Positions 1,658-48,592 of a stretch of 64,000 nucleotides of DNA are shown in pieces. Each line of letters opens with the position of its first letter. Position 1 is the stretch's first letter. The notes under the pieces were generated by a model. The model saw only the letters and a list, made by a program, of their open reading frames with translations, was not told where the DNA came from and did no database searches. A program made the position numbers and the translations under genes. The stretch is from Eledone cirrhosa (taxonomy: Eukaryota), in assembly GCA_964016885.1 (NCBI GenBank), contig OZ024740.1, forward strand, positions 110,732,001 through 110,796,000, written 5' to 3'.

Positions 1658-1698
1658 GTCAAAGTTCTTTCGTCACATTCTGTGACCTCTTCAGTGAC
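1658..1698 (-). ncRNA. Minimal type I hammerhead ribozyme in pLTR
   Basis: Minus strand GUCA-CUGAAGA-G-GUCAC agaau GUGAC-GAAAG aa CUU-UGAC. Confidence 0.75.
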
Positions 1699-1963
1699 TG
1701 GGATTCTTTTCTTTGTTTTTGTGCCTCTCCTTTGTTCTGTCCTACGCCATCTTGTTTTTATTTGTGTTGTGTGCTTAGTTTGCGCATATGTTACATCCGG
1801 CTGTCTGTGTGTGTTTATATTTGTTTATTTATTTGTTTATTTACATGTTACTGGTTGGTTGTTTGTTCTATGTGTGTGTTTTCATTTTGTCCTTAATTGT
1901 AAGTTGTGATGTTGCTATTCCATTCATGCTTTCTATTTAATTTTGGTTGGAGTTCATTTATGT

Positions 1964-2521
1964 TTATTGTCTCTGTGATTTTCTAAACATTGCGTCTTTT
2001 CTGTGTGTAGATTCTATTTTTATTTCTATGTTCTTTAATTCACCCTTATGTTCTATTTTAGCATGTTGGTAGAGTACAGATGATTCTTTACTATCTTGAA
2101 GCTCTCGCCAGTGTTCATTTATCCTTTCTCCTATACTACGAGCTGTCTCACCTATGTACACTATATTCTTATCTTTACATTGTCCTTCACTACATCTTAT
2201 GCTATATACTACATTTCTAGTTTTACAGTTAATATGGGGGCTTAGTTTACAGATTATACATTTCTTATCTATACAGGGAGGTCTTTGAAAAGAGTATGTA
2301 TTGCTAATAAGTGTTTTTATGGAGGTACCTGGTCTTTCTACTATCTTAATATTGAGTTTATATTTATCTAGGGACATTCTGAATTTGTAAGCTAATTCAC
2401 CTCTAGGGGTTGTATTGATGAACATTACACTCTGGTTTTTATTGCTATCATACCATGAGTTTATTCTATTAACTTTATTCCTAGTTCTTTCTATTCTATT
2501 CCAAAATTTGCTCCTATACAA
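1964..2521 (-). pseudogene. PLE Cys-rich linker plus GIY-YIG endonuclease (frameshifted)
   Basis: PCIDKKCIICK...NCKTRNVVYSIRC...YIGETARSIGERINEH. Confidence 0.9.
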
Positions 2522-2581
2522 GGGGCAGGTCCCATTTGTATCCTTATTTACTATTTTTTCCCATTTGGTTCTGGCTCCTCT

Positions 2582-4120: not shown

Positions 4121-4192
4121 CTATACTAAACAAAAACAAGATGGCGTAGGATAGAACAAAGGAGAGGCACAAAAACAAAGAAAAGAATCCCA

Positions 4193-4235
4193 CTCACTGA
4201 AGAGGTCACAGAATGTTTGACGAAAGAACTTTGAC
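4193..4235 (+). ncRNA. Hammerhead ribozyme in inverted pLTR
   Basis: CUGAAGA-G-GUCA...UGAC-GAAAG aa CUU-UGAC; inverted copy of 1658-1698. Confidence 0.65.
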
Positions 4236-4390
4236 AGTATATGAACAATCGTATGGTTGTGGAACCAACCAGCCAATCGGAAATTTATAAATTCCTAAAT
4301 TTATAAATTTAATTTATAATAAATTGAAGTGAAACATCTGGTGCGTGTGTTTCTTATTGGCATATTGGCAACATGACCCTCCCAAAGTAT

Positions 4391-4458
<68 letters not shown>

Positions 4459-5190: not shown

Positions 5191-5450
5191 GTTAAGCCTA
5201 CATTACGTTTATTGGTTGGTGACATGCGTTTCTCTATTGATCAGCTCAAGGTTCGATCTGTATCGACCTGGCTCGACTCTGGAATCAAAAGCTTCTCGGA
5301 CCTCTGTCATTACTACAACAGAGGTTCGAGGAGCTTTTGATTCCAGAGTCGGCCCAGATCGATGCAGATCGAACCTTGAGCTGATCAATAGCGAAACGCG
5401 CGTCACCAACCAATAAACGTAATGAAGGTTTAACAATTCGTCCTTGTATT
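5191..5450. repeat. Fold-back element with about 120-bp arms carrying the 3' half of a hammerhead (GAAAC-GCGC-GUC)
   Basis: Imperfect palindrome centred near 5312; right arm has a short extra tail followed by TA repeats. Confidence 0.8.
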
Positions 5451-5690: not shown

Positions 5691-7129
5691 ATGAATTTAG
5701 CGTCTAAATTCATACAGTTCGACATAGAGAGCTACTATGCTTCAATCACCTTACCGCTACTTACTGCCGCCTTGGACTTCGCCGAAACACTTGTGCCCAT
5801 CACCGACCAGGAAAGAAAAATCATCCTCCACGCCAGGAAGACAGTCTTACTCTTTGACGACTCTAAATGGATAAAAAGAGCTCCCGACTCACCCTTCGAC
5901 GTCAGCATGGGCGCCACGGATTCGGCGGAGGTCACAGATCTTATAGGATTATTCCTAATAGCCAAACTCATCGATATGTTTCCTGCATTCGGTGGTGGAT
6001 TGTACCGTGATGATGGGCTCCTTACCCTTAAAGGGTACAACCCCATTAGTACAGATCGGGTCCGGAAACAATTATTCAGCTTCTTCCGCGACTGGGGATT
6101 TAAAATAACCCTACAAACGTCCCTGACCCGAGTAAACCCGAGTAAACCCGAGTAAACTTCCTCGACCTCGAAAACGACCTGTACTACCCATACAGGAAAC
6201 CTAATGACAACCTGCACTACATCCACCGCCGATCAAACCATCCTAGGAACATCACCATCAACCTGGTCAAAAACATCTCCCTCCGCATATCCCGTTTGTC
6301 AGCTAATGAGCGGATATTCGATGAACATGCGCCTTATTACAACCAGGCCCTCAAGCGGAGTGGTTTCCGGGAGGAAATATCCTACTGTCCAGCTCCCATT
6401 AGCGGAACCAGCAGGAGACACCGCCGCTCACGCAATGTAACATGGTTCAATCTTCCCCACAACGCAGAGGTGACAACTCCCATCGGGAAACTATTCTTTA
6501 GGCTCATTGAAAAACACTTCCCACTACAACACCGCTACCACAACATAATTAACAAAAATACCATCAAACTCTCTTACAGCACTACACCAAACTTCGCACA
6601 AAACATCGCCTCCTCTAACAACAAAAAACTCAACCCCGATGGCAGAAATAACCTAAATAGCAGTGGAGAGCCGACCAGGAGGTGCAACAGTCCGGATAGA
6701 TCCATTTGCCCACTCGACAATAGATGCAGAGACCGTAATGTGATCTACCAGTGCAACGTGAGGACGGACACCTCCAACAAAGCTTATATAGGACTAACCG
6801 CATGTGACTTCAAGACCCGGCTATACCAACATAGACATACCTTCCGAAACCCGGCCCGGCGTCACGCCACTACACTTTCGGGCCACATATGGGACCTCAA
6901 GGACAACAACATCACCTATGATCTCACTTGGAGATTACTGTCCAGAGCCAATTCTTACACGGGAGGACGCTGTCCGTGCAATTTATGCTCGGAGGAAACT
7001 TTACAAATGCTGTTTTCGACGGACCAACTCCTAAACAAGAACGTTGAACTGGTTACTGCATGTAAACATAGATTGCGTAGGACCTACATCGCCCTCAAAC
7101 CCCATAATGACCCGGGGGGGAGGGGGTAA
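5691..7129 (+). pseudogene. Naiad-type Penelope-like RT plus GIY-YIG (5'-truncated, frameshifted at a CCCGAGTAAA x3 duplication)
   Basis: FIQFDIESYY, FDVSMG, GLYRDDGL, YRKP...SNHP, WFNLP, KLSYS, CPLDNRC, NVIY...YIGLT, CNLC, CKH. Confidence 0.9.
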
Positions 7130-8349
7130 ACTAGGGCTATAACACCCCACTTGCCGATTTTGCAATGGGTAACCCCTGCTTGCCAAGGGAGACGTAAGAT
7201 CTTTTTATTCTTTTATCGCTTCCTTTATTTCCTTCTTCCCCCCATCCCTCCTTAGTCCTTCTACCCCAGTTCTTCTTCTTTGTCGGCGTCTTCTCTCGCC
7301 CACCCGAGGCTGCCCTTTGGCCCCTTGTAGCCTCAGTACCCCCACCCCCTCCGCTAGTCTATGATAGATTTGGCGGACTCCGCTTTTTATAGCAGTTGTG
7401 TTAGACCTCGGATACTTGCCCCCTTTTCCCGACCGCTCCCACTATTTTCCGTGCCTTCTATATTTCTTAGTGGCACTTATGCCTTATTTTCTCGTTTCAG
7501 TATTTCTTTCTTCTCTTTTCTTTTGGGCGGGGTGGATTCTGAATTTATTTTTCCGTATTCTACCTTTACTTCGTACGAACTTATATAAGATCTTTTAGAG
7601 TTAGCATTAGTATATATTTTTTTCGGGACTCAGAATTATTATCTCGTACTAGTTTACTTTGCTGCACTGGGTGGTTGCTGGCATTGTGCCCGGGATAGAA
7701 ACCTTTATTATTTATTTCGTGGTAGTTTCTTTAGTATTTTGGCCCCATTTGTTGACCCGTCACCGTATGATTTACGTACTTATACCTCTTAAAAGGGTCT
7801 TTGCCTATTCAGTCCCACCTAGTTTATTTACTTATTTCGTTATTTCTTTATTTCTTTCTTTATTTCTTTCTTTCTTTATTTATTTATTTATCTAGCCTAA
7901 CAATAGCTAGAGACTTAGGTCGTAGAACTTACTTCACTTTTTTCTTTACACTTATTCGCTTTTCATCACTCTCAGTATTTTTTCTTTCATATATATATTT
8001 TTACCCCTCATTGTTCTACCTACCGTTCCGACTTCCCCCCCCTCCCCCTCCCCAGTATCTTCTTTGACCTCATGCCCAGCTGTAGCTGGCACTACCAACG
8101 CATGATTGGGTCTACTCCACCCCCTCCCCTTTTTCACCTACTGGCAGGTTTAGCCACCATCTCCCCTACTAATTTGCAATCACAGAATTACTACTGACTT
8201 TTGACAATCACTTTGACCATATATGGAATTACCCTTTGAGAAGCTCAGCCGTCGGGGTCTTACTGGTTCCTATTACCCACTCTACTACCCTGAGTATTGA
8301 GTACTTTGGTGCGTTATGGTCCACCTGGTTCCTTACCACATTTCCTTCG

Positions 8350-9067: not shown

Positions 9068-9094
9068 GTATGTATGTATGTATTACGTATGTAT

Positions 9095-9622
9095 GGCAAC
9101 CCCACCAAGGTTTCTTGGTGAGGAGGGTGACTTTGGACATCCTGCAGGACTTAAAACAAAACCTGTCAAAGGGCAAAGGAGCTCTTAAGAGTCAATGGCC
9201 ATCCAAAATCACCGGGAGAGATGACCCCTTAGCCTTTGTCAAAGCAGAATTCTAGGAGAAGGAAAACTCTGATATAACACCTGCAACCCTGATGGTATTC
9301 AATGATGTTGACTTGTTCTTCTTTTTGTTAAATATCATCTGGGTTAAGAGAGTGGGACTGGCTTTGTGCAGTACCTTTGCTCACTATAAAGGCTTCACGA
9401 CACAGGCATTGCTTTATATCTGGAGATCTCTCTGCACTTGTCGTCACATGGTACCATGGGCCCAGCACTTTGTGTCAATAATTGTCACAAGTGTAGTGTT
9501 TGTACCAGAGTTTTCAAGTAGCTGGTTGGACTAAAAAGTCACACTCGTCCAGCGCATCAGTAGAGTTTCTCCTACATGGATATAAAGTAGTGGCCGTACT
9601 CGAAAACGAGTTAGCAGCCACC
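9095..9622 (+). mobile_element. Non-autonomous retro-element flanked by (ATGT)n, probably RTE-derived
   Basis: Close inverted copy at 52656-53220; CTAGGAGAAGGAAAACTCTGA resembles RTE 5'-UTR motifs (recalled); tetranucleotide tail. Confidence 0.6.
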
Positions 9623-10109
9623 ATGTATGTATGTATGTTTGTATCTATATGTATGTATATATGTATATTTAAATTGAAGAAACGAAGGTTTTTAAATCAC
9701 ATCTATTTTTAATCTCTAAAATAAAACTGGTATATGCTATAAATTATTATCTTAATTATCTATATGACTTGCAATCTATCCAGTGGGATAAGTAGATAGA
9801 TTGTTTGATACATTCGTACATAGATAGCCAAGAATATAGACCAAATGACAGATTGACTGGTAGAAAGATAGAGAGAGTGAGTAGGAGAAAGAAATGGATA
9901 AATAGGTATGAGAGCTAAATATGGAAGGATGTGGACTAAGAAATGAGCGAAAGTGTTTACCAGAGGGGGAGAGAGAGAGAAAATGAAAGCTAAGGTGACG
10001 GAGAGAATGAGAAAGGGTGAGAGAGAGGGCGAGAAAGCGAAAGGGAGACAAGAGAAATTTGGCGTGGAGCCATGAAACTGAAGTTTCGAGAAAGGTAGTA
10101 TGTAGCAGG

Positions 10110-19128: not shown

Positions 19129-20180
19129 TGATGAAGGGTGATACCCAGAAACAGTCTCTCCAGTTCTGTGTACATGCCAACACAAGGGCAATATTGAAGT
19201 GCTCATTCTACTGACATGGCTATAAAATTAAGGCGAATGTTATTATTAATATTAGAAACAATTATTAATATTCGAAAAACTCAGATTACATTTATTGTAT
19301 TCAGCCATGTAGAGCGAACATTTTCTTTGTTATTTGAATTTGGCAAAACCAGCCATTTATCACTCGTATACAGGAAACTGACTGGCCAGTCTGCTGATAT
19401 GCAAATCTGGCTGATCAGAGGATCTGCTATTATGCAGATCTGACTGATCAGCCAGTCTGCTAATATGCAAATCAGGCCGATCTGTCACTGTGTATTTTTG
19501 AAAATAGCATATATTTTCACTAGCTCTGACAGTTTGGCAGGTGAATAGTGAGCTGTACTGATGAAGGGTGATACCCAGAAACATTAGTGTCAGCAGTTCT
19601 GTTCACATGCCAACACAAGAGCAATAATGAAGGGTTCATTCTACTGCCATCGCTATAAAATTGAAGCTTGTTTGCGTAATTGCAAACGAATCGAATGTTA
19701 TTATTAATATTCGAAAATAGGGCGATGAATTGGCAGTATCGGTAGAGGGTCGGACGCCATGCTTTCCAGCATTGTTACGTCCCTTTACGGTCTGAGTTCA
19801 AATTCCGTCGAGGTTAACTTTGCCTTTCATCCTTACCGGGTCGATAAAATAAAGTACCAGTAATGAACTGGGTAATTTCTGGCCTTGTGCCAAAAGTAGA
19901 AAGAATTATTAATATTCGAAAATGGTGAGTGTATTGTAAGTATCGGTAGAGGGTCGGACGCCATGCTTTGGCGCATAGACTTACGGCCCTTGCCATTCTG
20001 AGTTCAAATCCCGCCGAGGTTAACTTTGCCTTTAAGCCTTACCAGGGTCGATAAAATAAAGTACCAGTAATGCACTGGGTACTTGCTGGCCTTGTGCAAA
20101 AAGTAGAAACAATTATTAATATTCGAAAAACTCAGATTACATTTATTGTTTTCAGCTATGTAGAGCGAAAATTTTCATTT

Positions 20181-20979: not shown

Positions 20980-21240
20980 AAGTAGAAGTTGTATTTAATT
21001 TGTTGGAAGTTCGACAAACATAAATGTTTATAACTGATTTAGAGCACTGAACGTGTTACTGGAGTAAATATTCAATGATATTAAATGAATGGAAACTATA
21101 TTTATAAAACCATTTTTATTTTATTATATATATTTCAAGGGCAACCAAGACAACATTGGTACGCTTTCATCAGATAAAATACAAAGTTTGTTTTCATAAA
21201 TAGAGACGTACCCATGGAAATCATACCTTATCACCCTAAC
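20980..21240 (-). mobile_element. pLTR family C with hammerhead at 21119-21179
   Basis: Minus strand UUUUAU-CUGAUGA-AAGcguACCAA..UUGGUugccCUU-GAAA UAUAUA UA-AUAAAA; homologous to 44295 and 50950. Confidence 0.8.
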
Positions 21241-21469: not shown

Positions 21470-22414
21470 TTTTTTTTTTTTTTTTACCTGTTTCAGCCAT
21501 CCGGCTGAGGCCATGCTGGGATATATATATATATATGTATATATTTATGTATACATATTTATATATATACATCTTTTGTTTCGTCTGAGAGACAGCATGT
21601 TCATGCGAATGTACGGGTGGTGGCAGTGGTGTAAGTACATAAAGAAGGAATGACAGTGAAACTATTAAATTAGACATTTTTTTAGAAAAGTATAATTGTG
21701 TAAATAGTGTTTAAAAGAATGAGACAGGAGGAAATAGAGAAAACTACAAAATAGAAACTGAATGAGGTCGATAGTCCATCTCACTCAAATCCTCCCTTGT
21801 ATATGCTATGGCGGGTGATGGTGGTGCGGATTGTGTATATATATATATATATATACACACACAGTGCAAGAAATGACAAGACTAACACAGAGATGCAAAA
21901 TCACAGTCTGTAATATATATATATATATATATAGTTCAAGAAATGACAAGACAAACACAGAGATACAGAAACAGTTTTATTATTCACGCTTATATTTATA
22001 TATATGTATGTATGTGTGTGTGTGTGTGTTTGTTTTCCACTCTATAATATACACCTATAAATTCCATGTGTCAATATAAGGAATCGTGCTTACGTAATGC
22101 TGTAATTTGTATGTAGTAGCTGTAACAGGCCGAATCTTTTGAGCTGTCTTGATAACGTGATAGAAGCTCGAAATCTCTTTTGTTAATCTGTCGGTTGTCA
22201 CAATCAAGACATTGCATTGAGAAATTGGTCAACAAATACAGTAGTAAAATTTCCTACGTAGATAATGAGATCTTGAAGCTAGACATCAGATCAACGATTT
22301 ATGTAGTGATGATCAGGCAGAAGTATAAGAATGACGAACTGCATACCTTTCCACTATTTGTTGAAGTCATTAATTTCAGAGTTCAAATACTGACCAAGTC
22401 GATTTTGTATAATA

Positions 22415-22525
22415 TAATTGTTTCTACTTTTGGCACAAGGCCAGCAATTACCTAGTGCATTACTGGTTCTTTATTTTATCGAACCCGTAAGGATGAAAGG
22501 CAAAGTTAACCTCGGCGGGATTTAA
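22415..22525 (-). mobile_element. Partial Meta-type SINE
   Basis: Reverse complement of the family core. Confidence 0.8.
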
Positions 22526-22908
22526 TACCAGTTCATTTGTAATGACGACAACATTCCCACGGAACAAAGCCCTTAAAAAAAAAAGAAAATGAAGAAAAAC
22601 CTTTGAAACAAACCCCCTCGGTGAAAGTGGAAAATTGGACAGAACTACTTTCGTTAATGTTCCTTCGCCTAAATTTTTTCCAGAATTTATTATTATCTTT
22701 TTAAACATTGTTAAAATTTGTTTACACGCAAAACCCACACACAAACACACACACGCACACACTCTATGTTTTTGTCCTGTACTGTATAATGTTTTTCTTG
22801 ATGTGGACTCTTTGTGGTTAATAAAGGAATCATTATCATTATTATTAGAAATATATGTCGGCCCTTGTGGTCATTGAATGAAACCATTATTATTTTCCAG
22901 TTCTCCAG

Positions 22909-24764: not shown

Positions 24765-24829
<65 letters not shown>

Positions 24830-24945
24830 TAAGAGGAATTCCAACTTTGTCTGATTTACTCGTTTTATTTACAATCCTTTAAAATATATATAATATGGTA
24901 TTATAATGAAATAGTATGATAGAATATTAAATTCTAAGTGTTAAT

Positions 24946-24984
24946 TGAACAAGTACTTTCATGCTTTCGCAATCTTCAGGTTCA
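24946..24984 (-). ncRNA. Minimal hammerhead ribozyme
   Basis: UGAAC-CUGAAGA-uUGC gaaa GCAu-GAAAG ua CUU-GUUCA. Confidence 0.88.
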
Positions 24985-25035
24985 TGATATGTGGTGACAG
25001 TCGAATTTGCAATTTTCAACTGTCACCACATATCA

Positions 25036-25074
25036 TGAACCTGAAGATTGCGAAAGCATGAAAGTACTTGTTCA
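25036..25074 (+). ncRNA. Minimal hammerhead ribozyme
   Basis: TGAAC CTGAAGA TTGC GAAA GCAT GAAA GTAC TT GTTCA; palindromic AAGTACTT stem III. Confidence 0.88.
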
Positions 25075-25237
25075 ATTAACACTTAGAATTTAATATTCTA
25101 TCATACTATTTCATTATAATACCATATTATATATATTTTAAAGGATTGTAAATAAAACGAGTAAATCAGACAAAGTTGGAATTCCTCTTATTAATATAAT
25201 CTATACACAATCATACACACCCGTGTATATTTACCTA

Positions 25238-25335
<98 letters not shown>

Positions 25336-25337
25336 CA

Positions 25338-27850
25338 TATTGTTATACTTGGTGAGGGTCATATTTGTGTAATAATATTGCCAGAATTAATACCAGAACA
25401 CACTCACTGTTTGGTTGGTTTTCGCTTCTGTGTCTTTTATATCGGTTAATTTAATTTATTCGGTCCTCAATGTTTCCATTGACTGACCAACGGTCAAAAA
25501 TACAGATATAATTTAGACACAAACACATATATATAGTCTAACAAAGTTCTTTCGTTGCACATCTGCAACATCGTCAGTGGTGCCATTATGTTTCCTCCCG
25601 TTGTATTGTATGCCTACGCCCTCTTATTTAGTCTGTTAATTAATTAATTTATTTTTTGTCTTCTCTGCGCATGCGTTTGGGTGTGTGTATAGTGTTTAAT
25701 GTGTGTTCGTGTTTGGGTGACTGTGTATTGGTTATTGTATTCTATCTTAGTTTACTAGTGTGTGTTTATATGTGCTTGTTGTTATTGTGCTTGTGTATGT
25801 ATTTATTTACTTATTTATCTCTTAGGTTGGTATTGTTTGTTTGGGTGTTGTTGTTATTCCATGCATTTTTTCTGTTTAACCTTGGCTTTATAAGTTCTAT
25901 TTCGCTGACCTCTCTGATTTGCCTATCTGCTGGGTCATTTCTATGTTTAGATATTATTCTAATTTCTATGTTACCGTCGTTTTGTTGTCTGGCATGTTCG
26001 TATAGTACTGAAACGTTTTATCGTCCTTTTAGTTCCCCCCAGTGTTGGTCTATCCTTTCACCTATGCTGCAAGCTGTCTCGCCTATGTATGTTGTTGTCA
26101 TGTTTCTGCAAGTATCCTCTGTACATCTTATTCTATAGACTACGTTTCTAGTTTTACAGTTTATCCGGGGGTTTACTTTACATATAATACATTTCCTATT
26201 AGTACAGTGGGTTTTCTTAAAAGGGTAGGTTTTGCTGATCAGGGATTTAATGGTGGTTCCTGGCTTTTCTACCACCTTAATCTTTAAGTGGGTCTTTCTC
26301 AGGGCCTTTCTACACTGGTTAGCTAATTTCCCTCCAGGGGTAGCGTCCACAAATATGGCACTCTGTATCTCTGGTTGTCGTACCATGAGGTGGCTTTCCC
26401 TATCTTATGTCTAGTCCTATCTAAGCTATTCCATGATTTGCTCCTGTATAATGGGAAAATTCCTTTCATGTCCAGTTCTATGATGGTCTTATACCTCTCC
26501 GTGGCTCCTTCGTATACTCTGATTCTGTCTCTTTGGTTGTAGCCAGAGAACTGCATGCGGTTTATGAAGTGTTGGATGTGTCTTTCCATTTCTATTGGGT
26601 CGCACATGCGGGACACGTTCTTCATCACTCGTACCAAGTCTGCGATCATAATATTAAACTTAGCACTACTGGACATTGCTGAGTTTTTGAGTATCAGGTA
26701 TTTGGAGGCCATGGGTTTAGCATAGTGTGAGTGGAGAATTTGGGCTCTCTCATCTATAGTGTTAATCCAGAGTTCCGTGTCTAATACAGGTAGTCTATTG
26801 TTAGGGTGTTTGGAAGGGTAGTCGATAGTTACAGTTATACTCTGGTGTATGGAATTAGCTATCTGCTGAATGCCTTCCTTTGTGCAACGTTCTAAATCAA
26901 ACTTGTTAGTACTCTCTTGTGGGGATGTCCTTATTACTATATTGATGTCGTCTACGTAACCAGAGTACATGATGAGGTCTATGGAGCACTCATCAAGGAG
27001 ATCTTTGAGTCTCCTTTCCCACCATACCAGATCTTTGAGTCTCCTTTCCCACTGCTCCATTATTTTTGGTGTAGATCTTCTCGTTGAATTTGAATATGTG
27101 GCCCTTTAGGGTAGTTTTGATACTAGCCTCTATTGCATGTGCGACCATTTTTCTTACCTGATCATTGTTTTGGGGGGTCCGTATAGCTTTGGTCCACCCA
27201 ATCCACCTTCCCATGGGAGTCTTTTTCGCTATTGAGGTTATGGTGGAGTGTCTACCTCTTATGGGTCTACTGGGGCAGAAACATCTAAGGTCATGGCTGT
27301 CTAGGTAGTCAGTGTCATAGGTAAGTCTAAGTAGGAGGCCCAGTTCGTCTGTGTCGACGTCGCAGAACTCCACCTCACTCTCAATGATCATCTCCACACA
27401 TTTTTCCACAGCAAAATTAATGTTAATGGATGGGTACAGTGATACCACATCCATACTGCCTATTATGCAGTTGGATTGGTTTTTGTTTTTGTTGCACTCA
27501 CTGATTCTGCTGAGGAGGTCCTCTGTACTGTCACATACATCTGGGGACATCATCATTATGGGGAGTATTACCATTGAGAGGAAGTAGGAGATCCTGTAGT
27601 TGCTAACTACATTTGCTCCGCATACATGTCTTGTTGGTGTTCCTGTTATCGGGTCGCCGATTGTCTTGTGGTTTTTGCAGAGCCCATACAAGTGTGGTAT
27701 GCCATTGTTAGACGCCTGTAAGTTGTTGGCAGTGCGTTTGCTTGGCTTTAGGATGTCAGTCCATATCATCATGTGAGCGTTGAGGATTTTCTCTCTCCCA
27801 TCATGTATTTGCTGTGCAATTTCGCTCGTGTTGGTGATGTGGGGTTGCAA
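25338..27850 (-). mobile_element. 5'-truncated Penelope-like element (RT 26323-27853, GIY-YIG about 25890-26386, pLTR with HHR 25541-25580)
   Basis: GSMDVVSLYPS, YSGYVDDINIV, LPVLDTELW, NCKTRNVVYRIRC, YIGET; relative of the 1461-4397 element. Confidence 0.92.
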
Positions 27851-29646
27851 CAAATGAGGGGGCAGCCATTGGCCTCAGCATAGCTGGTGACGTTTCCAAA
27901 CTTTTTATGGTATGGTGGGAAAGTAGACTCAAAGATCTCCTTGAAGAGTGCTCCATAGACCTCATCATGTACTCTGGTTACGTAGACGACATCAATATAG
28001 TAATAAGGACATCCCCACAAGAGAGTACTAACAAGTTTTATTTAGAACGTAGCATAATGGAAAGCATCCAGCAGATAGCTAATTCCATACACCAGCGTTT
28101 AACTGTAACTATCGACTACCCTTCTAAACACCCTAACAATAGACTACCTGTATTAGACACGGAACTCTGGATTAACACTATAGACGAGGGAGCCCAAATT
28201 CTCCACTCACACTATGCTAAACCCATGGCCTCCAAATACCTGATACTCAAAAACTCAGCAATGTCCAGTAGTGCTAAGTTTAATATTCTGATCGCAGACT
28301 TGGTACGAGTGATGAAGAACGTGTCCCGCATGTGCTACCCAACAGAAATGGAAAGACACATCCAACACTTCATAAACCGCATGCAGTTCTCTGGCTACAA
28401 CCGAAGAGACAGAATTAGAGTATACAAAGGAGCCACGGAGAAGTATAAGACCCTCATAGAACAGGACATGAAAGGAATTGTCCATTATACAGGAGCAAAT
28501 CATGGAATAGCTTAAATAGGACTAGACATAAGATAGGGAAAGCCACCTCATGGTACGACAACCAGAGATACCAGAGTGCCATGTTTATAGACGCTACCCC
28601 TGGAGAGAAATTAGCTAACCAGTGTAGAAAGGCCCCTGAGAAAGACCCACTTAAATATTAAGGTGGTAGAAAAGCCAGGAACCACCATTAAATCCCTGAT
28701 CAGCAAAACCTACCCTTTTAAGAAAACCCACTGTACAAATAGGAAATGTATTATATGTAAAGTAAACCCCCGGATAAACTGTAAAACTAGAAACGTAGTC
28801 TATAGCATAAGATGTACAGAGGATACTTACAGAAACATGACAACAACATACATAGGCGAGACAACTCGTAGTATAGGTGAAAGGATAGACCAACACTGGG
28901 GGGAACTAAAAGGACTAAAAAACGGTCAGTACTATACGAACATGCCAGACAACAACAACACGACGGTAACATAGACAACATAGAAATTAGAATAATATCT
29001 AAACATATAAATGACCCAGCAGAAAGCAAATCAGAGAGACCAGCGAAATAGAACTTAGAAGGCCAAGGCTAAACAGCAAAAATAAGTGGAATAACAACAC
29101 CCAAACAAACAATACCGACCTAAGAGCAGTATAAATAAATAAATAAATACATACACAAGCACAATAACAACAAACACATATAAACACACACTAGTAAACT
29201 AAGATAGAATACAATAACAAATACACAGTCACCCCAAAACGAACACACATCAAACACTATACACACACGCAAACGCATGTGCAGAGAAGACAAAAAAAAA
29301 ATAAACATAAAAAATAAATAAATAAAAAGACTAAATAAAGATGGCGTAGGCATACAATACAACGGGAGGAAACATAATAGCACCACTGACGATGTTGCAG
29401 ATGTGCAACGAAAGAACTTTGTTAGACTATATATATGTGTTTGTGTCTATATTATATGTGTATTTTTGACCGTAACATTGAGGAACGAATAAATTAAATT
29501 AGCCGATATAAAAGACACAGAAGCGAAAACCAACCAAACAGTGAGTGTGTTCAGTTATTAATTCTGGGAATATTATTACACAAATATGACCCTCCCCAAG
29601 TATAACAATATTTCTTTCGACACACATATCAAAAACCTCGCATTAC

Positions 29647-30192: not shown

Positions 30193-31504
30193 TAGCAGAA
30201 GTACCTGGCGTTGCCCGGGTGTAAGTCGACCTTTGCTCTTTTGTTAAAATGTATGAAAGTTACTTCCCGCGCATCACAGGTGCAAAAACCTTCGAAACTC
30301 AATGAAAAAAAAAACAGAGGTTAGTAGAAGCAGATGTGTAATTATGCATAAATAATGGATCAATTGTAGGTTCACAGTGTATCGTTGAAATTGTTCTTTG
30401 CACGACGGATGTCAAATTCACTTGAAATTGAATTTTCAGTTGATTTTTAAAGGAGGGTGAAAAAGTCGTTTTTTTTCAAATTTTTTTTTCTTTTATAATT
30501 TTCGCGCTCACATGTGCAGAAGAAATAAAAGGGACTTTATCTGAACCGCGGCAAAATGGCGAGTCTTTTGCGACAAGAAAATCGGACGTTCCTGTAAAAA
30601 GTTTTTCAATGTGCAACGTTACTTTGTTTTTTGCGCAAAGTCGAACCTCCGCTTCAGTTTTATTGATTTTTTACATGAATGCGTGACCTCTGAAGTAGAT
30701 TTGAGTGGCTAAAAACCTGTCCCGGTAAATTTGCTATAGGTGAAAAAAAGTTGACCAAAATTGTGTCTAGTGTTATTGCCCTTTGCAACAGCCCCAACGT
30801 GTTTTCAAGTATGGTTTGTTAATTTGTTATGGAACTAAATCGACTTTCGTTAAATTGAACCGAGGAAACAATGTTTCCATTTGTCTTTCTAGCTGGTGTA
30901 CCCGGTTACACTCGGGGTTATGTGGCGCTGGATTTAAACGGGTCTGCGCTAAATTCAAGCAGGATGCTTTAACCGAAATAAATGAAGAACAAACGGTTCT
31001 TTTTGTGCTCCAATCTGTGATATTGGTATTTTTAAAAAATAGTCCACAAACATCCATGGAGCATGTGTAACGCATGTATCAGGTTAGGAGAAAAAGGGTT
31101 TTCGATTCTCCATTCATAAGATACCAAAAAATTGCACGCAAATAAACCGGGATTTTAAGACACTGCCCAATTCATAGCAAGTGGAATAATTTGTTGTTGT
31201 TTGCGGCTGACAGGGCGTGGATGCGGCATGCCAATTGAGTTGCACCTCGGGAATGTAGAGAGCACCGGGAGCCATGATGAGTGTTTGAGAAAACCGGGTG
31301 CAAGGCAGGAGTTTATCGGCCATACATGATCGGTAGGCTTTGGAGGAGAAAGAGATGAATGTTTGTTTAATTTTGTAAATATGGTCAAAATGAATGTAAA
31401 AAGACTTACACAGGATCGTCTTCATGTTCGGTGCTGTCTTTGGTCTGAGATAATGGGCGGTTATGTGCGGCGCAGGAATAAACCATGCTCATGACATTTG
31501 AGCA

Positions 31505-32370
31505 AGTTGCTGACAGGGCAGGAATGCCGCATGGTGAGCCATGGCAGTCGTGAGGGACCAAGGTGTGCGGGCAAGGGAGAGGGTAGGGGTTGACGGTGGC
31601 AGGGATGGGGCTTGGTTAGGCATGGCAGTCTTGAAGGAGCACGGTGGGCAGGAAAAATAAAGGGCTGAGGAGGGGATGGCGGCTAACAGATGATGGATGC
31701 GGCATGGTGAGGCATAACGATGCAGTGGGTCGACGGCGTGCAGGGAAGGGAGATGGCCGGGATTAACGGTTGCAGGGATTCCGCATGGCGAGCCATGGCA
31801 CTCGTGAAGGACCAAGGCGTGCGGGTAAGGGAGAGGGCAGGGGAGGGCATGGCGGCTGACAGAGCATGGATGCGGCATGGTGAGGCATGACGATGCAGTT
31901 GGACGACGGCGTGCAGGGAAGGGAGAGGGCAGGACTTGATGGTGGCAGGGATGCGGCTTGGTTAGGCATGGCAGTCTTGAAGGATCACGGCCGGCAGGCA
32001 AAGTAAGGTCTGAGGAGGGGATGGTGGCCGACAGGGCAGTAATGCGGCATGGTGAGGCATGACGATCCAGTGGGACGACGGCGTGCAGGGAAGGGAGAGG
32101 GCAGGGGTTGACGGTGGCAGGGATGCGGCTTGGTCAGTCATGGAACTCTTGAGCTCTCCCGGAGTGTAGGCAATTGAAATGGGCAGGGTGGATGGTGGCA
32201 GGGATTCGGCATGTTGAGCCGTGGCAGTCCTTAGGGACCACGGAGGGCAGGCAATGGAAAGGGCCGGGGAATGAATTGCGGCTGACAGGGCAGAGATGCG
32301 CATGGTGATACACAACGATGCAGTGGGTCGACGGCGTGCAGGGAAGGGGGAGGGCAGGGTTTGACGGATG
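31505..32370. repeat. GC-rich minisatellite (about 80-95 bp units) inside the Helitron
   Basis: Recurring GGATGCGGCATGGTGAGGCATG...GCAGGGAAGGGAGAGGGCAGG. Confidence 0.85.
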
Positions 32371-32649
32371 CCTCATTATGCTAAGGTAGTGGGACAACAG
32401 GAATGAAGAGAGCGCATGGAGGCTCGATGATGGCTTCAGAAGACTGGGCGCAATACAGGATGATGCGCGGCGGTATAGTCTTGATAGTTCTTATATAAGA
32501 AATGGAAAAATCGGCATAAAAGGTTTGCTGAATATGGTGAGCGTTAATTTAAAGCGACTTACGGTGGATAATCCTGATAGATTGAACGTTTTTTGCATGG
32601 CGGGAGTCACGACAAATGGAAGCAAGAAGAATGGCGTTTTTCGGTTGCC

Positions 32650-34200: not shown

Positions 34201-34877
34201 TAATATGGTATGTATAATGATGGTAAAGTGCTTGAATGTGTGTGTCGGGATGGAAAAGGGAAGTTATGACAAGTGGAGGAAACTGAGACAATAAGGAAGG
34301 TATGGATATAGTGTGCCCGATGACGATGACGATGATGGTATGTGTTGATGATGATGATGGTAAGAATTATTAAGAGGGGTGAAAATATGGGTGAAGATGA
34401 TGATGATGATAGGGTAAATGAAATGAATATGTATATATTAATCGGTGGAAGTGAGGATTAATTAAGATGTTTACTGAAAAGTATTTATTGAGAAATAGAA
34501 TTACTTGTGAAAAGAAACAGGATGGTCTGAATCAAATGAAATGGTTCAGTAGATTTTTGGAGTGGGTTGTAGTGATGGTGGTAAAAATATATTTAGTGGT
34601 CTGTGTTTGGTAGTGATGATGTGAAAACATTTTTCTGTAAATGTCTTAATTTATCTTCACCCCACCTATGTCTTTCTATATTCTTATAAAGCTACTCAAT
34701 GGATATGAAAATTGTCTTTATTTAGATATACACTGTATCAAAAGATTTCTACTTTTCTGTGTGTGATTGTTAATATGCTTTTACAATCGGTTACTTAGAA
34801 CTTTTAATTTTTAACTGTATAGGTAGTGTCAAGTCATCTTAATTTTAAAACCTTTATTTTATTTATTCATTATTTAT

Positions 34878-35060
34878 TGGATTGGTAGTATCAGTAGAGG
34901 GTCGGACGCCATGCTTTCCAGCATAGTTACGTCCCTTTATGATCTGAGTTCAAATCCCGCCGAGGTTGACTTTGCCTTTCATCCTTACGGGGTCGATAAA
35001 ATAAAGTACCAGTAATGCACTGGGTAATTTGCTGGCCTTGTGCCTAAAGTAGAAACAATT
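34878..35060 (+). mobile_element. Meta-type tRNA SINE
   Basis: Full family consensus. Confidence 0.88.
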
Positions 35061-35137
35061 ATTTATTTGTTAATTATGCGGTTAGTGTACTTTAATGTAA
35101 TTTTAAATGTAGGTATTTGGTGTAATATTAATGCTGG

Positions 35138-35527: not shown

Positions 35528-35600
<73 letters not shown>

Positions 35601-35603
<3 letters not shown>

Positions 35604-35760
35604 ATTGTTTCTACTTTTGGCACAAGGCCAGCAATTACCCAGTACGTTACTGGTACTTTATTTTATCGACCCCGTAAGGATGAAAGGCAAAGTTAACCTC
35701 GGCAAGATTTGAACTCAGATCGTAAGGGGACGTAACTATGCTGGAAAGCATGTCCGACCC
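35601..35760 (-). mobile_element. Meta-type tRNA SINE
   Basis: Reverse complement of the family consensus. Confidence 0.85.
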
Positions 35761-35814
35761 TATTATTGTTATTATATATATATAATAATAATAATACTAT
35801 TTATAGTTATGTAT

Positions 35815-36390
35815 ATACTATAAACAACTATAAACAGGAAAGGTCAGTAATTTCCTACTACCTTATTACCACTAAGAGAAATAACTCAATGTAAGAACAT
35901 CAGTTGTTTTACAGAGCAGGAAAATAAATAAATTAGACAATTATCAAAGTTGTCTTCAAATCATTTAATAGCTGACAATCGTTTCTTCCAAACTCTCGTT
36001 TGGATTCATCGGAGCATTATCAATGTTTGTACATGCAATTAACCTCTTTCTTTCTCAAACCTCCTTTCTCAATGCCTATTTACTTATTAGACTATTCTCT
36101 TATATTATCTGTTGCATGTATTCCACTCTGTGCTTTTAATTTGAATTTGAATTTTTGTACAATTCTCGTAAAATATATGTCACATCCATTCCACACTGTA
36201 AATACGAGACTGTTGCTCACAACATCAATATATATGTATCTATATTATTGTTCAGTTGAATAGGAGGTTAATTACATGTACAAACATTGATAATGTCCCG
36301 ATGATTCCAAACGAGAGTTTGGAAGAAACGATTGTCAGCTATTAAATGATTTGAACACAACTTTGATGATTATCTAGTTTATTTATATAT
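35815..36390. mobile_element. Family A inverted pLTR pair with hammerheads at 35971-36015 (-) and 36295-36339 (+)
   Basis: GCU-CCGAUGA-(a/u)UCCAAAC gaga GUUUGGAA-GAAAC gauu GUC-AGC; inverted arms around a spacer of about 215 bp. Confidence 0.8.
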
Positions 36391-36455: not shown

Positions 36456-36549
36456 AGTGTTTGTGTGTGTGCGTGTGTGTGTGTGTGTGGATCTTTTCAT
36501 ATATATATATATATATTCGTGTTATCTTCTCGAACATAGGAATGAGTAA

Positions 36550-36735
36550 CAATTATTTCTACTTTTAGTACAAAGCCAGCAATTATCCCAGTACATTACT
36601 AGTACTTTATTTTATCGACCCCGTAAGGATGAAAGGCAAAGTTAACCTCGGCGGGATTTGAACTCAGAATGCCAAGGGCCGTAACTCTATGCGTCAAAGC
36701 ATGGCGTCCGACCCTCTACCGATACTGCCAATCCA
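36550..36735 (-). mobile_element. Meta-type tRNA SINE
   Basis: Reverse complement of the family consensus. Confidence 0.88.
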
Positions 36736-37016
36736 ATGAATACCGAATTGTTGTTTGAATATTCTTTATTATTGGTACTTAGCAATAGGAAAGAAAAATG
36801 GAAGCATTGTTTCCTCACACCGATTTGCCGAGCTCCATCCCACTCGTTAAGCGAATGAGGTCTGGGTTCTTGTAGATCAACTGTTATATATTATTGCAAA
36901 GTGGTGAGTGTTGTTACTCTCGAATTTCTCTTCAGTACTTACAGGATCACCAGACAAGAACCATCACTTAGCCATAATAAAGAGTGTATATATATACACA
37001 CACATATATATATATA

Positions 37017-42231: not shown

Positions 42232-42317
42232 GTAGTAGTGGTGGTAGCGGTAGTAGTAGTAATAGTAGCAGTAGTAGTAGCAACAGTAGTAGTAGCAACA
42301 GTATTATTATTATTACA

Positions 42318-42437
42318 GTCTGAGTTCAAATCCCGCCAAGGTTAACTTTGCCTTTCATCCTTACAGGGTCGATAAAATAAAGTACCAGTAATGTACTGGG
42401 TAATTGCTGGCCTTGTGCCTAAAGTAGAAACAATTAT
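42318..42437 (+). mobile_element. 5'-truncated Meta-type SINE
   Basis: B box plus core and tail. Confidence 0.85.
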
Positions 42438-43561: not shown

Positions 43562-43790
43562 GCGAAGGAAAAGTGGTAAGGAACCAGGTGGACCATAACG
43601 CACCAAAGTACTCAATACTTAGGGTAGTAGAGTGGGTAATAGGAGTAAGTGAGACCCCGACGGCTGAGCTCAAGCCGTTTCGACGGCTAATTCTGTACTC
43701 AAGAAGCAATCGATAATTCGACGGCTAATTGAGTACAGAATTAGCCGTCGAAACGGCTTGAGCTCAGCCGTCGGGGTCTTACTTACTCAT
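43562..43790. mobile_element. Family B fold-back element (hammerhead 3' half)
   Basis: GAATTAGCCGTC-GAAAC-GGCT TGAGCTCA GCC-GTC-GGGG in inverted arms; (TA)n flanks. Confidence 0.82.
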
Positions 43791-43805
43791 ATATATATAT
43801 ATATA

Positions 43806-44046
43806 TATTGTTATATTTTGGGAGGGTCATGTTGCCAATAAGAAACACACGCACCGGATGCTTTCACTTCAATTTATTATAAATTAAATTCATAAATTTA
43901 GGAATTTATAAATTTCCGGTTGGTTGGTTGGTTCCACAACCAGACGATTGTTCATATATTGTCAAAGTTCTTTCGTCACACATTAACAATATCGGTTTCA
44001 ACACACGTTTTCAGATAAAGAATCTTGCTAAACAAATTCAGAAACG

Positions 44047-44047
<1 letters not shown>
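43806..44047 (-). mobile_element. pLTR fragment of the 1461-4397 family joined to its inverted tail
   Basis: Matches about 1520-1678, stops in HHR stem II (TTCGTCACACAT), then reverse complement of 1461-1525. Confidence 0.85.
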
Positions 44048-44088
<41 letters not shown>

Positions 44089-44099: not shown

Positions 44100-44268
44100 A
44101 TTAGAAATTAGAAATTATAAGCTTTCACCGTATTTTAGACTAAAGAAATTTCTAGCCTGATAGTGGGGTTTATAACCCTCGGAGAAATGGAAAAGATGAG
44201 TGTTGCCGTACATGGGAGTCGAACCCACATCTTTGGTTATCCAGACCACTGTGTTACCATTACACCGA
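44100..44268 (-). mobile_element. tRNA-derived SINE-like fragment
   Basis: Minus strand GGTGTAATGGTA (A box/D arm), GTGGG TTCGACT CCCAT (T arm); 5' acceptor strand replaced by (TA)n. Confidence 0.55.
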
Positions 44269-44293
44269 TATATATATATAATATATAATATAT

Positions 44294-44630
44294 GTAGAGG
44301 TTATATTTAATTTGTTGGGATACAACAAGCAAAATATTTTTATAAGTGATATAAAGCACTCAACAAATTATTTGAGTAAATATACAATTATTTGAGTAAA
44401 TATACAAATGGAAACTTTATTTATAAAACCATATTTATTTCATTATACATATTTCAAGGGCCACCAAAGTAAACTATAAGGGTATGTCAATATTTATTTA
44501 TAAAACTAACCTATATTATATTTTATCTGATGAAAGCGCACCATAGTTTACTTTGGTGGCCCTTGAAATATGTATAATGAAATAAATATGGTTTTATAAA
44601 TATAGTTTCCATTTGTTAATATATTGTAAT
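44294..44630. mobile_element. Family C inverted pLTR pair; intact HHR 44521-44582 (+), left arm truncated in the stem II loop
   Basis: TTTTAT-CTGATGA-AAGcgCACCA..TGGTGgccCTT-GAAA TATGTA TA-ATGAAA. Confidence 0.82.
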
Positions 44631-45092
44631 ATATAATATATATATATATGTGTAAATATATATCCTCCTCTCTCTCTTTCTCCCCTGTATCTCTATTTGT
44701 TGTCTTTTTTATATTCTTCTTTCCGTCGTCCATATTTTTCTTTCTTTCGTTCTTATCTATTTATCTATTTTTTTTATTCATTTTTTTCTTTTGTTTCATT
44801 TCTTTCTTACTGTATTTCTTTTCCTCTTTTATTTCCTTCATTTATCCTTTCTTCTATTTTTCTATCATTCTTTCTATGTATTTCTCTTTGTTTATTTCTC
44901 TTTGTTTATTTCTCTTTGTTTATTTCAATGTTATCTTTCTGTTTTCTTTTCTTCTATATTTATTTATTTGTTTCTTTCTTTATTTTCCTTCCTCTCTTTC
45001 TCTCCTCCTTTTTATTTCCCTCAACTTCTCTCATTAATTCTCTATTCCGCTCCTCGTTTCTGTTCTTCCTTTCTTCCTCTCTCTCTGTCTAA

Positions 45093-45175: not shown

Positions 45176-45314
45176 CCTCCCTCTCTCAACAACTCATTCA
45201 TTTCATTCATTCCACCATTCTTCATTTTCTTTTTAACTTTTATTTATCCTTCTTTTACTTATTCACCACTATTCTCCTTCACTCTTTTGCGTATTCCAGC
45301 TGACAGGCGGGTGT

Positions 45315-45679
45315 CATGCTGTAGCACGACGACTGAGGCCATGCTGTAGTACGATGCCTGAGGCCATGCTGTAGCACGATGGCTGAGGTAATGCTGTAGT
45401 ACGATAACTGAGGCCATGCTGTAGTACGATGACTGAGGCCATGCTGTAGCACGATGACTGAGGACATGCTGTAGTACGATGACTGAGGCCATGCTGTAGC
45501 ACGATGACTGAGGCCATGCTGTAGTACGATAACTGAGGCCATGCTGTAGCACGATGACTGAGACCATGCTGTAGTACGATGACTGAGGCCATGCTGTAGC
45601 ACCATGACTAAGGCCATGCTGTAACACCATGACTAAGGCCATGCTGTAGTCCCATGATTGAGGCCATGCTGTAGTACCA
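45315..45679. repeat. 25-bp minisatellite, about 14.5 copies, with mostly alternating C/T variants
   Basis: CATGCTGTAG(C/T)ACGATGACTGAGGC. Confidence 0.95.
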
Positions 45680-45726
45680 CCACTTTTCTTCTTTTTTCTA
45701 ATTTTTCTTCTTTCGTTTCTACATAG

Positions 45727-46480
45727 TTATTGTGCTGCTGCTGTTGCTACTTTTGTTGTAATGGTTGTTGTTGCTGCTGTTGCTACTGCCGCAAGTGTTG
45801 TTGTTGTTGTTGTTATTGCTAGTGTTGTGGTGTTGATGCTTGTTGTTATTGCTAGTGTTGTCGAGCTGGCTGTTAGTGCTAGTGTTGATTTTGTTGTTGT
45901 TGTTTTTACTATTGTGGTAGTGGTTGTTGTTATTGTTGTTATTGCTAGTGTTGTGGTGATGCTTGTTGTTGCTATTTTTGCTAGTGCTCTTGTGGTTGTT
46001 GTTGTTATTGTTAGTGTTGTTGTTGTTGTCATTGCTAAATTTGTGGTGGTGTTTGTTGTTGTTATTGCTAGTGTTGTGGTTGTTGTTGTTGTTGTTATTA
46101 TTGTTAGTATTGTTGTTGTTGTCATTGCTTTTGGTGGGTGTTGTTATTATTGCTAGTGATGTTGTTGTTGTTTTTGTTGTTGTTATTGCTAGATTCGTGG
46201 TGGTGGTTATTGTTGTTATTGCTATTAGTGGTGGTCGTTATTGTTGTTATTGCTAGTGTTGTTATTGTTGTTGTTGTTGTTGCAGCTGCTAGATTTGTGA
46301 TGGTGTTTGTTGTTAATATTAGTGTTATGGTGGTGGTTATTGTAGTTATTGCTAGTGTTGTTGTTGAAGTTGCTTTTGGTGGTTGTTGTTGTTATTATTG
46401 CTAGTGTTGTTGTTGTTGTTGCTGCTAGATTTGTGGTGGTGGTTGTTGTTGTTATTGCTAGTGTTGTTGTTGTTGTTCTC
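45727..46480. repeat. Degenerate (GTT)n trinucleotide tract with recurring ATTGCTAGT
   Basis: Direct inspection. Confidence 0.9.
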
Positions 46481-47920: not shown

Positions 47921-47931
<11 letters not shown>

Positions 47932-48348
47932 CACGGGTGTGTATGATTGTGTATAGAAGATTATATTAATAAAAGGAATTCCAACTTTGTCTGATTTACT
48001 CGTTTTATTTACAATCCTTTAAATTTATAATGATATTATAATGAAATAGTATGGTAGAATATTAAATGTTAAGATTTAATTGAACAAGTACTTTCATGCT
48101 TTCGCAATCTTCAGGTTCACATTATGTGGTGACAGTCAAGTTTGCAATTTTCAACTGTTGAAAATTGCAGCCTTGACTGTCACCACACATTATGAACCTG
48201 AAGATTGCGAAAGCATGAAAGTAGTTGTTCAATTAACACTTAACATTTAATATTCTACCATACTATTTCATTCTAATGCCATTATAAATTTAAAGGATTG
48301 TAAATAAAACGAGTAAATCAGACAAAGTTGGAATTCCTTTTATTAATA
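47921..48348. mobile_element. Family D hairpin element, second copy, with HHRs 48081-48119 (-) and 48193-48231 (+)
   Basis: Homologous to 24822-25240 with the tail on the opposite side; centre TTTTCAAC-T-GTTGAAAA. Confidence 0.9.
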
Positions 48349-48362
48349 TATATATATATATA

Positions 48363-48549
48363 AGAAGGAAATGTGGTAAGGAACCAGGTGGACCATAACG
48401 CACCAAAGTACTCAATACTTAGGGTAGTAGAGTGGGTAATAGGAACGAGTAGGACCCCGACGGCTGAGCTCAAGCCGTTTCGACGGCTAATTCTAGACAG
48501 AATTAGCCGTCGAAACGGCTTGAGCTCAGCTGTCGGGGTCCTACTCGTT

Positions 48550-48553
<4 letters not shown>
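48363..48553. mobile_element. Family B fold-back element centred on a GACGGCTAATTCT-agac-AGAATTAGCCGTC hairpin
   Basis: Inverted arms with GAAAC...GTC; (TA)n flanks. Confidence 0.85.

Positions 48554-48592
<39 letters not shown>

What the first reader, a model, noticed from the sequence alone, without database searches (positions are those of the whole stretch)
24822..25240. Double-hammerhead hairpin element present as two independent copies
Seen: two back-to-back minimal HHRs on opposite strands in inverted arms of about 180 bp. A second, diverged copy (47921-48348) turns around at the same TTTTCAACTG site and has the extra tail of about 40 bp on the other side. Inference: either the hairpin transposes as a unit (a ribozyme in each polarity, reminiscent of viroid-like rod RNAs) or this site is a reproducible 5' end or fold-back point of the family. 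Any read-through transcript would form long dsRNA.
Basis: partly seen in the sequence, partly recalled or inferred. Interest (0 to 1): 0.75.

Follow-up and report, generated by a model that had tools for sequence, protein, structure and literature searches.

The report
Head-to-head Penelope ends carrying hammerheads
Both hairpins are real and carry a hammerhead-ribozyme motif on each arm, but they are likely the short head-to-head remnants that Penelope-like jumping genes commonly leave at each insertion, not a viroid-like RNA; their shared turning point probably marks where the element's RNA starts.

Summary
Confirmed: two hairpins (24822-25240, 47921-48350), each with inverted arms of about 190 bp, a minimal type I hammerhead motif in all four arms, a one-sided 30-41 nt tail and (TA)n on both flanks. 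[quoted passage not shown] Three more opposite-strand hammerhead pairs lie in the window, two enclosing RT/GIY-YIG frames, and sibling families turn at different points. Arm differences sort by locus (13 columns) and never by side (0). In a whole-hairpin RNA the hammerhead is predicted to be fully sequestered, and each strand has only one, so the viroid-like reading fails. The shared turn is a 25-nt quasi-palindrome 72 nt upstream of the cut site, probably the RNA 5' end. Likely mechanism: both nicked target strands prime cDNA and the two meet head to head. Unit transposition is not excluded (two loci only; copy 2's arms differ at common family alleles). The scan reported the same pattern before in other genomes. 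No parent ORF or expression was shown. Ordinary, with one modest mechanistic clue.

The parts
24822..25022 (-). Copy 1, tail-less arm: pLTR-like monomer read on the minus strand, running to the family head
24946..24984 (-). Minimal type I hammerhead motif (stem I to stem I); predicted cut after 24951
   Evidence: cut position
24998..25022 (.). 25-nt quasi-palindromic head shared by the two arms of copy 1 (the turn); its unpaired centre reads in the orientation of the tail-less arm
25017..25198 (+). Copy 1, tail-bearing arm (175 of 175 shared columns identical to the left arm)
25036..25074 (+). Minimal type I hammerhead motif; predicted cut after 25069
25199..25240 (+). One-sided AC-rich tail (30 nt to the end of a predicted 6-bp stem-loop at 25213-25228, then a short AT-rich run into (TA)n)
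24770..24825 (.). (TA)n target microsatellite, left flank of copy 1
25241..25336 (.). (TA)n target microsatellite, right flank of copy 1; another PLE fold-back starts at 25337
47921..47961 (-). Copy 2 tail (contigs of run X1 leave into TA-rich flank before 47923 and 47929)
47962..48157 (-). Copy 2, tail-bearing arm, running to the head
48081..48119 (-). Minimal type I hammerhead motif
48157..48350 (+). Copy 2, tail-less arm (161 of 170 shared columns identical to the left arm), starting 1-3 nt inside the head
48193..48231 (+). Minimal hammerhead motif with a changed loop 3 (GTAG)

Best explanation
Each hairpin is two head-to-head copies of the same 200-240 nt hammerhead-bearing segment, one with a tail and one without, set in (TA)n, and each was likely built anew at its own insertion from the RNA of a Penelope-like element. 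Shown: the anatomy, the two alternative 3' ends in other family copies, the same pattern in sibling families attached to RT/GIY-YIG frames. From the literature: a PLE enzyme nicks and extends both target strands in AT-rich DNA and starts reverse transcription at two internal RNA sites that bound the tail (PMC11167929). Inferred: one target strand primes at the tail-less site and the other at the tail end; both cDNAs run towards the RNA 5' end and are joined there, by annealing across the 25-nt quasi-palindrome (copy 1) or almost blunt (copy 2). Inferred, weaker (about 0.5): the shared turn is the 5' end of the RNA (start site in the pLTR), so priming at the 5'-proximal tail sites gives an 'empty' PLE unit of fixed length. 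The second hammerhead is a mirror by-product with no role of its own.
For: Published structure matches point by point: inverted 5'-truncated copy plus 30-40 bp tail at either end (PMC8557442); head-to-head arrangement, palindrome at the pLTR 5' end, inverted pLTR overlapping the direct one by 15 bp (PMC3846280); dual minimal hammerheads about 100-700 bp apart on opposite strands (PMC4209133). In the window three more opposite-strand hammerhead pairs occur (-1694/+4197, -25577/+29386, -51140/+51908); the first two enclose RT and GIY-YIG frames (Pfam GIY-YIG E 1.9e-4 and RVT_1 E 7e-4, both under the curated cut-off). Arm variants: 13 columns by locus, 0 by side; copy 1's two arms share minority family alleles, e.g. 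48121 (15%) and 48068 (2-4%). Run X1 shows both 3' ends going into TA-rich flank: 29 contigs leave at 47962, 16 and 12 at 47923 and 47929. Of 15 fold-back loci looked at (14 plus 49018-49451), the tail-less arm is longer in 7, the arms are equal within 4 nt in 4, the tail-bearing arm is longer in 1, and 3 could not be assigned; a tail-primed cDNA folding on itself cannot make a longer tail-less arm. Copy 2's arms differ at 9 columns, 4 of them common family alleles (binomial P about 8e-4), as two different RNA templates would give. The head lies 38 nt before helix I; in D. virilis Penelope the start site lies 46 nt before an intron that ends at helix I. The hammerhead cut is 72 nt downstream of the head, so it does not make the turn.
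Against: No parent ORF for this family was found: none in the window, no genome held, pattern scans empty. Only two loci were compared, and copy 1's arms are identical, so 'by side = 0' could not have come out otherwise; gene conversion between arms would give the same result. The 4 common-allele differences in copy 2 also fit side-specific markers of a unit-moving master hairpin, and two of them (48122, 48124) can be read as part of one 7-nt micro-inversion. A fixed head is weakly supported outside the window: 3 of the 8 listed X1 pieces and 1 of the 8 listed X4 pieces end at 48154-48155, but 2258 pieces were not shown, the ends are 2-3 nt from the edge of my reference, and no strand-change joint was listed. 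No promoter evidence: the head has only a 5-letter initiator-like match (consensus recalled). No target-site duplication can be read inside (TA)n.
Confidence: 0.75

Rival explanations
1. Same PLE origin, but the second arm is made by self-priming: one cDNA (or an antisense transcript) folds back at the quasi-palindromic head and copies itself; the tail is added from the other end.
For: Proposed for head-to-head PLE palindromes in PMC3846280. Copy 1's arms are identical (175 of 175) and its loop reads exactly as a snap-back of the tail-less strand predicts. Four loci have arms of equal length.
Against: Self-copying cannot supply the tail on the copied arm, nor explain 1461-4394, where the tail-bearing copy is 2.6 kb of ORF and the inverted arm a short pLTR. 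Copy 2's arms differ at 4 common family alleles. In copy 1 snap-back in cis and annealing in trans give the same sequence, so this rival partly overlaps the best explanation.
Confidence: 0.25
2. A non-autonomous hairpin element: the whole inverted unit is transcribed and retrotransposed as one piece by a PLE enzyme.
For: Same head in both loci; very abundant family (2191 contigs laid in X1, 2518 of 12.5 million reads in X17); several alleles near 30-65% could be side markers, and copy 2's arms differ at four of them; non-autonomous PLE derivatives are known.
Against: The two junctions differ; 13 columns sort by locus, 0 by side; sibling families show the same architecture with varying turns; the enzyme would have to copy through about 190 bp of perfect duplex.
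Confidence: 0.1
3. A viroid-like RNA with a ribozyme in each polarity that replicates or circularises as RNA.
For: A hammerhead motif on each strand and a rod-like fold.
Against: The two motifs are mirror copies, one per strand; both are predicted fully sequestered in either whole transcript; circular retrozyme RNAs come from tandem same-strand canonical hammerheads (PMC7229834); single minimal hammerheads showed no cleavage in vitro (PMC4209133).
Confidence: 0.02
4. Assembly or library artefact (fold-back chimera).
For: Copy 1's arms are identical; the junctions were not checked against reads.
Against: One-sided tail, asymmetric loop, 94.7% arms in copy 2, and more than ten hairpins of at least four families with the same logic.
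Confidence: 0.02

Closest known systems
Inverted-pLTR insertion units of endonuclease-positive Penelope-like elements (PMC3846280, PMC8557442)
   Same: Head-to-head inverted copy, palindrome and overlap at the 5' junction, 30-40 bp tail on one end only, microsatellite target.
   Different: No ORF and no second direct pLTR between the arms: only the inverted arm and the tail-bearing arm. Parent ORF not found.
Minimal type I hammerheads of PLE pLTRs (PMC4209133)
   Same: Type I topology, conserved core, 5-bp helix I, palindromic loop 3, pairs on opposite strands.
   Different: Helix II is only 3 bp with U-U at its base instead of the conserved G10.1-C11.1 (a U-U base is reported for an axolotl retrozyme motif, PMC7229834); the cores are 62 and 84 nt apart, closer than the 100-700 bp quoted.
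Poseidon PAc of Anolis in vitro (PMC11167929)
   Same: Two alternative 3' ends bounding an AC-rich tail with a stem-loop, AT-rich target.
   Different: That study did not reconstitute head-to-head joining; the two-primer model here is my inference from it.
Non-LTR retrozymes (PMC7229834; bioRxiv 10.64898/2026.07.22.740005)
   Same: Short, non-coding, about 240-nt unit with a type I hammerhead, PLE-related.
   Different: Retrozymes are head-to-tail tandems with same-strand hammerheads that cut out circles; these copies are head-to-head with one motif per strand.
Viroids and other RNA replicons with a ribozyme in each polarity (recalled, not tested by a call)
   Same: Rod-like fold and a ribozyme motif on each strand.
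   Different: Here the rod is a plain inverted duplication in host DNA and the ribozymes are each other's complement.

Membership tests
EN+ Penelope-like element (pLTR remnant) | Minimal type I hammerhead in the terminal repeat | tested here: met
   4 of 4 arms; 10 hits against 0.1 in shuffles
EN+ Penelope-like element (pLTR remnant) | Adjacent inverted copy, head to head, with palindrome or overlap at the junction | tested here: met
EN+ Penelope-like element (pLTR remnant) | 30-40 bp tail on one end only; two alternative 3' ends | tested here: met
   loose ends at 47962 and 47923/47929 in run X1, at 47962 and 47929 in X4
EN+ Penelope-like element (pLTR remnant) | Insertion into AT-rich microsatellite | tested here: met
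EN+ Penelope-like element (pLTR remnant) | Joined to an RT plus GIY-YIG ORF in full-length copies | tested here: inconclusive
   No such copy of this family in the window; no genome held; scans empty. Met for sibling families at 1461-4394, 25337-29611 and 49018-49451.
EN+ Penelope-like element (pLTR remnant) | Target-site duplication | not testable with these tools
   Both ends lie in (TA)n
Minimal PLE hammerhead consensus | G10.1-C11.1 pair at the base of helix II | tested here: not met
   U-U in all four arms (consensus)
Minimal PLE hammerhead consensus | Palindromic loop 3 | tested here: met
   3 of 4 arms; copy 2 right arm changed
Minimal PLE hammerhead consensus | Self-cleavage | not testable with these tools
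   Stem I is predicted weak even in single arms (probability 0-0.09)
Non-LTR retrozyme | Head-to-tail tandem with same-strand hammerheads | tested here: not met
   Both loci are head to head
Non-LTR retrozyme | Expressed as circular RNA | not testable with these tools
   No RNA run available
Viroid-like RNA with ribozymes in both polarities | A foldable ribozyme in each polarity of the unit RNA | tested here: not met
   Predicted stem probabilities 0.0 in all four whole-hairpin folds; equilibrium prediction only
Unit-transposing hairpin element | Arms group by side; one shared junction | tested here: inconclusive
   13 by locus, 0 by side, junctions differ; only two loci, and copy 2's arms differ at 4 common alleles

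The most novel reading that the evidence does not exclude
The hairpin is a non-autonomous Penelope-derived element that moves as one fold-back unit with a fixed centre, present at very high copy number, each copy a ready-made source of 190-bp double-stranded RNA with a ribozyme motif in either polarity.
Probability: 0.1. Interest if true: 0.65.

Novelty: new member of a known kind. Interest (0 to 1): 0.22.

Why it matters
As a structure it is ordinary: a new family showing the known PLE pattern. The useful part is mechanistic. How PLEs make their head-to-head repeats is still described as undefined (PMC8557442). A very abundant family with a fixed head, plus neighbours in which the tail-less arm is often the longer one, gives a simple genome-wide test between two-primer synthesis and self-priming. 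If the hairpin did move as a unit it would be a kind of non-autonomous retroelement that my five searches did not turn up.

Tried and rejected
No whole genome is held, so the genome-wide arm tree could not be built. Exact-pattern scans for further copies found nothing: metagenome contigs twice, viral contigs, prokaryote genomes. Earlier-scan look-ups by sequence and place were empty. Sequencing runs: no RNA holder listed. Of 19 listed runs 4 were laid, on one arm only (47921-48157). X14 gave 1 read. The X17 depth ratio head/hammerhead of 0.86 fits a fixed head and long random truncation alike. Rfam miRNA matches are generic hairpin scores under threshold. The three frames of the monomer hold stops and no convincing ORF start (the copy 1 frames there were off by one base and were not used). 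A PDB search with the neighbouring RT gave one weak RT match (E 0.0014). The arm alignment for 43800-44050 caught only TA repeats; that locus was read. Hammerhead cleavage as the cause of the turn was rejected (cut 72 nt from the head).

Full report
Observation. The finding is accurate. Copy 1 has inverted arms at 24822-25005 and 25015-25198 (99% complementary); copy 2 at 47962-48155 and 48157-48350 (94%). They are the only family loci in the window. All four arms hold a minimal type I hammerhead motif: 5-bp stem I, CTGAAGA core, 3-bp stem II with a U-U base, GAAA, 4-nt loop 3, cut after UU. The strict descriptor hits 10 times in the window and 0.1 times on average in 30 shuffles. Rfam does not score these motifs. 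A tail of 30-41 nt lies on one side only, and (TA)n flanks both ends. Copy 2 is copy 1's structure in the opposite orientation.

Setting. The window is microsatellite-rich animal DNA with many broken RT and GIY-YIG frames. A SINE at 60520-60720 looks to me like an octopus repeat; that is recalled, from no call. A masked self-comparison shows many fold-backs. I examined 15: the 14 and 49018-49451. Family C (1461-4394, 43800-44047, 54095-54210, 25337-29611) has inverted arms from about 8 nt to 1.7 kb, hammerheads in both arms of the two long loci, and RT/GIY-YIG frames between them. Family D (44282-44645, 50950-52014) also turns at different points and has a hammerhead pair in the second locus. 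Family B (43563-43792, 48364-48554, 49018-49451) turns within about 10 nt in two loci and far upstream, inside a GIY-YIG-type C-terminus, in the third. So 'two hammerheads back to back' is what PLE families do here.

The turn. The 5' end of the monomer is a 25-nt quasi-palindrome (24998-25022). In copy 1 the arms overlap across it and the unpaired centre reads in the direction of the tail-less arm; in copy 2 both arms reach it and join with a 1-nt loop. It lies 38 nt before helix I and 72 nt before the predicted cut, so ribozyme cleavage does not define it.

Arm relationships. Over 175 shared columns copy 1's arms are identical; copy 2's are 161 of 170; between loci 92-93%. Thirteen columns sort by locus, none by side, nine are private to one arm of copy 2. 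Family allele shares from runs X1 and X17 show that copy 1's arms share minority alleles (15% at 48121, 2-4% at 48068), as one source would give. Against a simple reading: 4 of copy 2's 9 arm differences (48033, 48039, 48122, 48124) are common family alleles (P about 8e-4 if 9 of 170 sites segregate; 44 of the 84 table rows were not shown; two of the four may be one micro-inversion). This fits two different RNA templates, later conversion, or side-specific markers of a master hairpin. Two loci cannot decide.

Other copies. The family is highly repeated: 2191 contigs laid in X1, 2518 reads in X17, 37 contigs in X4, 1 read in X14. Both 3' ends recur and run into TA-rich flank. No common variant is listed across the hammerhead (48081-48119; one row at 48092 under 5%), while 48120-48125 beside it is variable. 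Four of the 16 listed pieces end at 48154-48155, weak support for a fixed head; the RAD run is cut at 48149 and no strand-change joint was listed.

Ribozyme function. In both strands of both whole hairpins the predicted probability of stems I and II is 0.0; in single arms stem II reaches 0.4-0.76 in two of three folds and stem I at most 0.09. The antisense arm is transcribed first, so co-transcriptional folding would not rescue it (inference). A single minimal hammerhead showed no cleavage in vitro (PMC4209133) and the PAc hammerhead needed protein and was dispensable for insertion in vitro (PMC11167929).

Mechanism. PAc nicks and extends both target strands, prefers AT-rich DNA, is predicted to be a dimer, and starts reverse transcription at two internal sites that bound the tail, in an AC-rich stem-loop. 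The tail here is AC-rich and ends in a predicted 6-bp stem-loop. I infer two primers: one cDNA from the tail-less site, one from the tail end, meeting head to head. Of the 15 loci the tail-less arm is longer in 7 (24822, 35798, 43800, 44282, 49018, 54095, 25337), equal within 4 nt in 4 (47921, 43563, 48364, 49990), shorter in 1 (1461) and unassigned in 3 (5191, 50950, 53523); direction at 35798 and 49990 rests on flank logic only. A tail-primed cDNA folding on itself cannot give the first class. If priming occurs at the tail sites nearest the RNA start, both cDNAs stop at the RNA 5' end and the turn is fixed. D. virilis Penelope starts 46 nt before an intron whose end meets helix I, close to the 38 nt here; this is an analogy, not a test. 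Self-priming (PMC3846280) remains a live rival for copy 1.

Comparison with what is known. Inverted 5'-truncated copy with a one-sided 30-40 bp tail: PMC8557442 (passages). Head-to-head junction palindromes and a 15-bp overlap: PMC3846280 (passages). Dual minimal hammerheads on opposite strands: PMC4209133 (parts 1-2 of 4). PMC11167929: parts 1-2 of 4. PMC2377424 and PMC7229834: passages. bioRxiv 10.64898/2026.07.22.740005: part 1 of 5. No supplements were read; those of PMC4209133 and PMC8557442 may list this or related families. Searches listed no paper whose title or abstract describes a unit-moving double-hammerhead hairpin or two-primer synthesis for PLEs; subscription papers are not covered. 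Five earlier notes of this scan describe the same pattern in other genomes; they agree but are not independent evidence.

Verdict. Works like, and very probably is, the ORF-less remnant of a PLE insertion; family membership lacks the ORF link. New member of a known kind, interest 0.22. The fixed head and the arm-length bias are worth a genome-wide count.

Noticed in passing
window 25337-29611: Large PLE fold-back: 1.7-kb inverted arms (1599 of 1672 identical), each with a hammerhead (-25577, +29386), RT and GIY-YIG frames, 878-nt spacer belonging to the tail-less arm; starts right after copy 1's (TA)n.
   Followed up: partly
window 1461-4394: PLE with RT plus GIY-YIG frames on the minus strand, tail at 1461-1525 and a short inverted pLTR at 4128-4394; hammerheads at -1694 and +4197.
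   Followed up: partly
window 50950-52014, 44282-44645, 20981-21232: Second hammerhead family with long helix II; double-hammerhead fold-back at 50950-52014 with an unexplained 319-nt spacer; other copies turn or end at different points.
   Followed up: partly
window 43563-43792, 48364-48554, 49018-49451, 8242-8349: Fold-back family with an 80-nt tail and no hammerhead found in the part present; the 43563 junction holds a 26-nt filler that repeats 12 nt of the arm; 49242-49374 matches the end of the frame at 6146-7129.
   Followed up: partly
window 50062-50349: Near-perfect palindrome (143 of 144, no spacer) with about 100 nt extra on the left, between (TA)n runs; family not identified.
   Followed up: no
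window 5191-5434, 35798-36386, 53523-54061, 54095-54210: Further fold-backs, the last with 26-nt arms and a 57-nt tail.
   Followed up: partly
window 25240-25337, 43792-43800, 48350-48364, 54061-54095: Fold-back insertions of different families sit side by side on the same (TA)n run, suggesting repeated targeting of these microsatellites.
   Followed up: no
window 19697-20129, 22410-22536, 34865-35068, 35600-35761, 36547-36748, 42313-42432, 60334-61693, 63555-63712: Abundant SINE-like repeat of about 190 nt, more than ten copies; resembles an octopus SINE (recalled).
   Followed up: no
window 44212-44266 (-): tRNA-like Rfam match (36.8 bits) directly beside a PLE fold-back; may be a SINE head.
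   Followed up: no
window 9094-9647 and 52631-53184: 554-nt repeat, 95% identical, in opposite orientation 43 kb apart; not identified.
   Followed up: no
window 45240-45739 and 31482-32371: Tandem arrays with units of 25 nt and about 86/173 nt.
   Followed up: no
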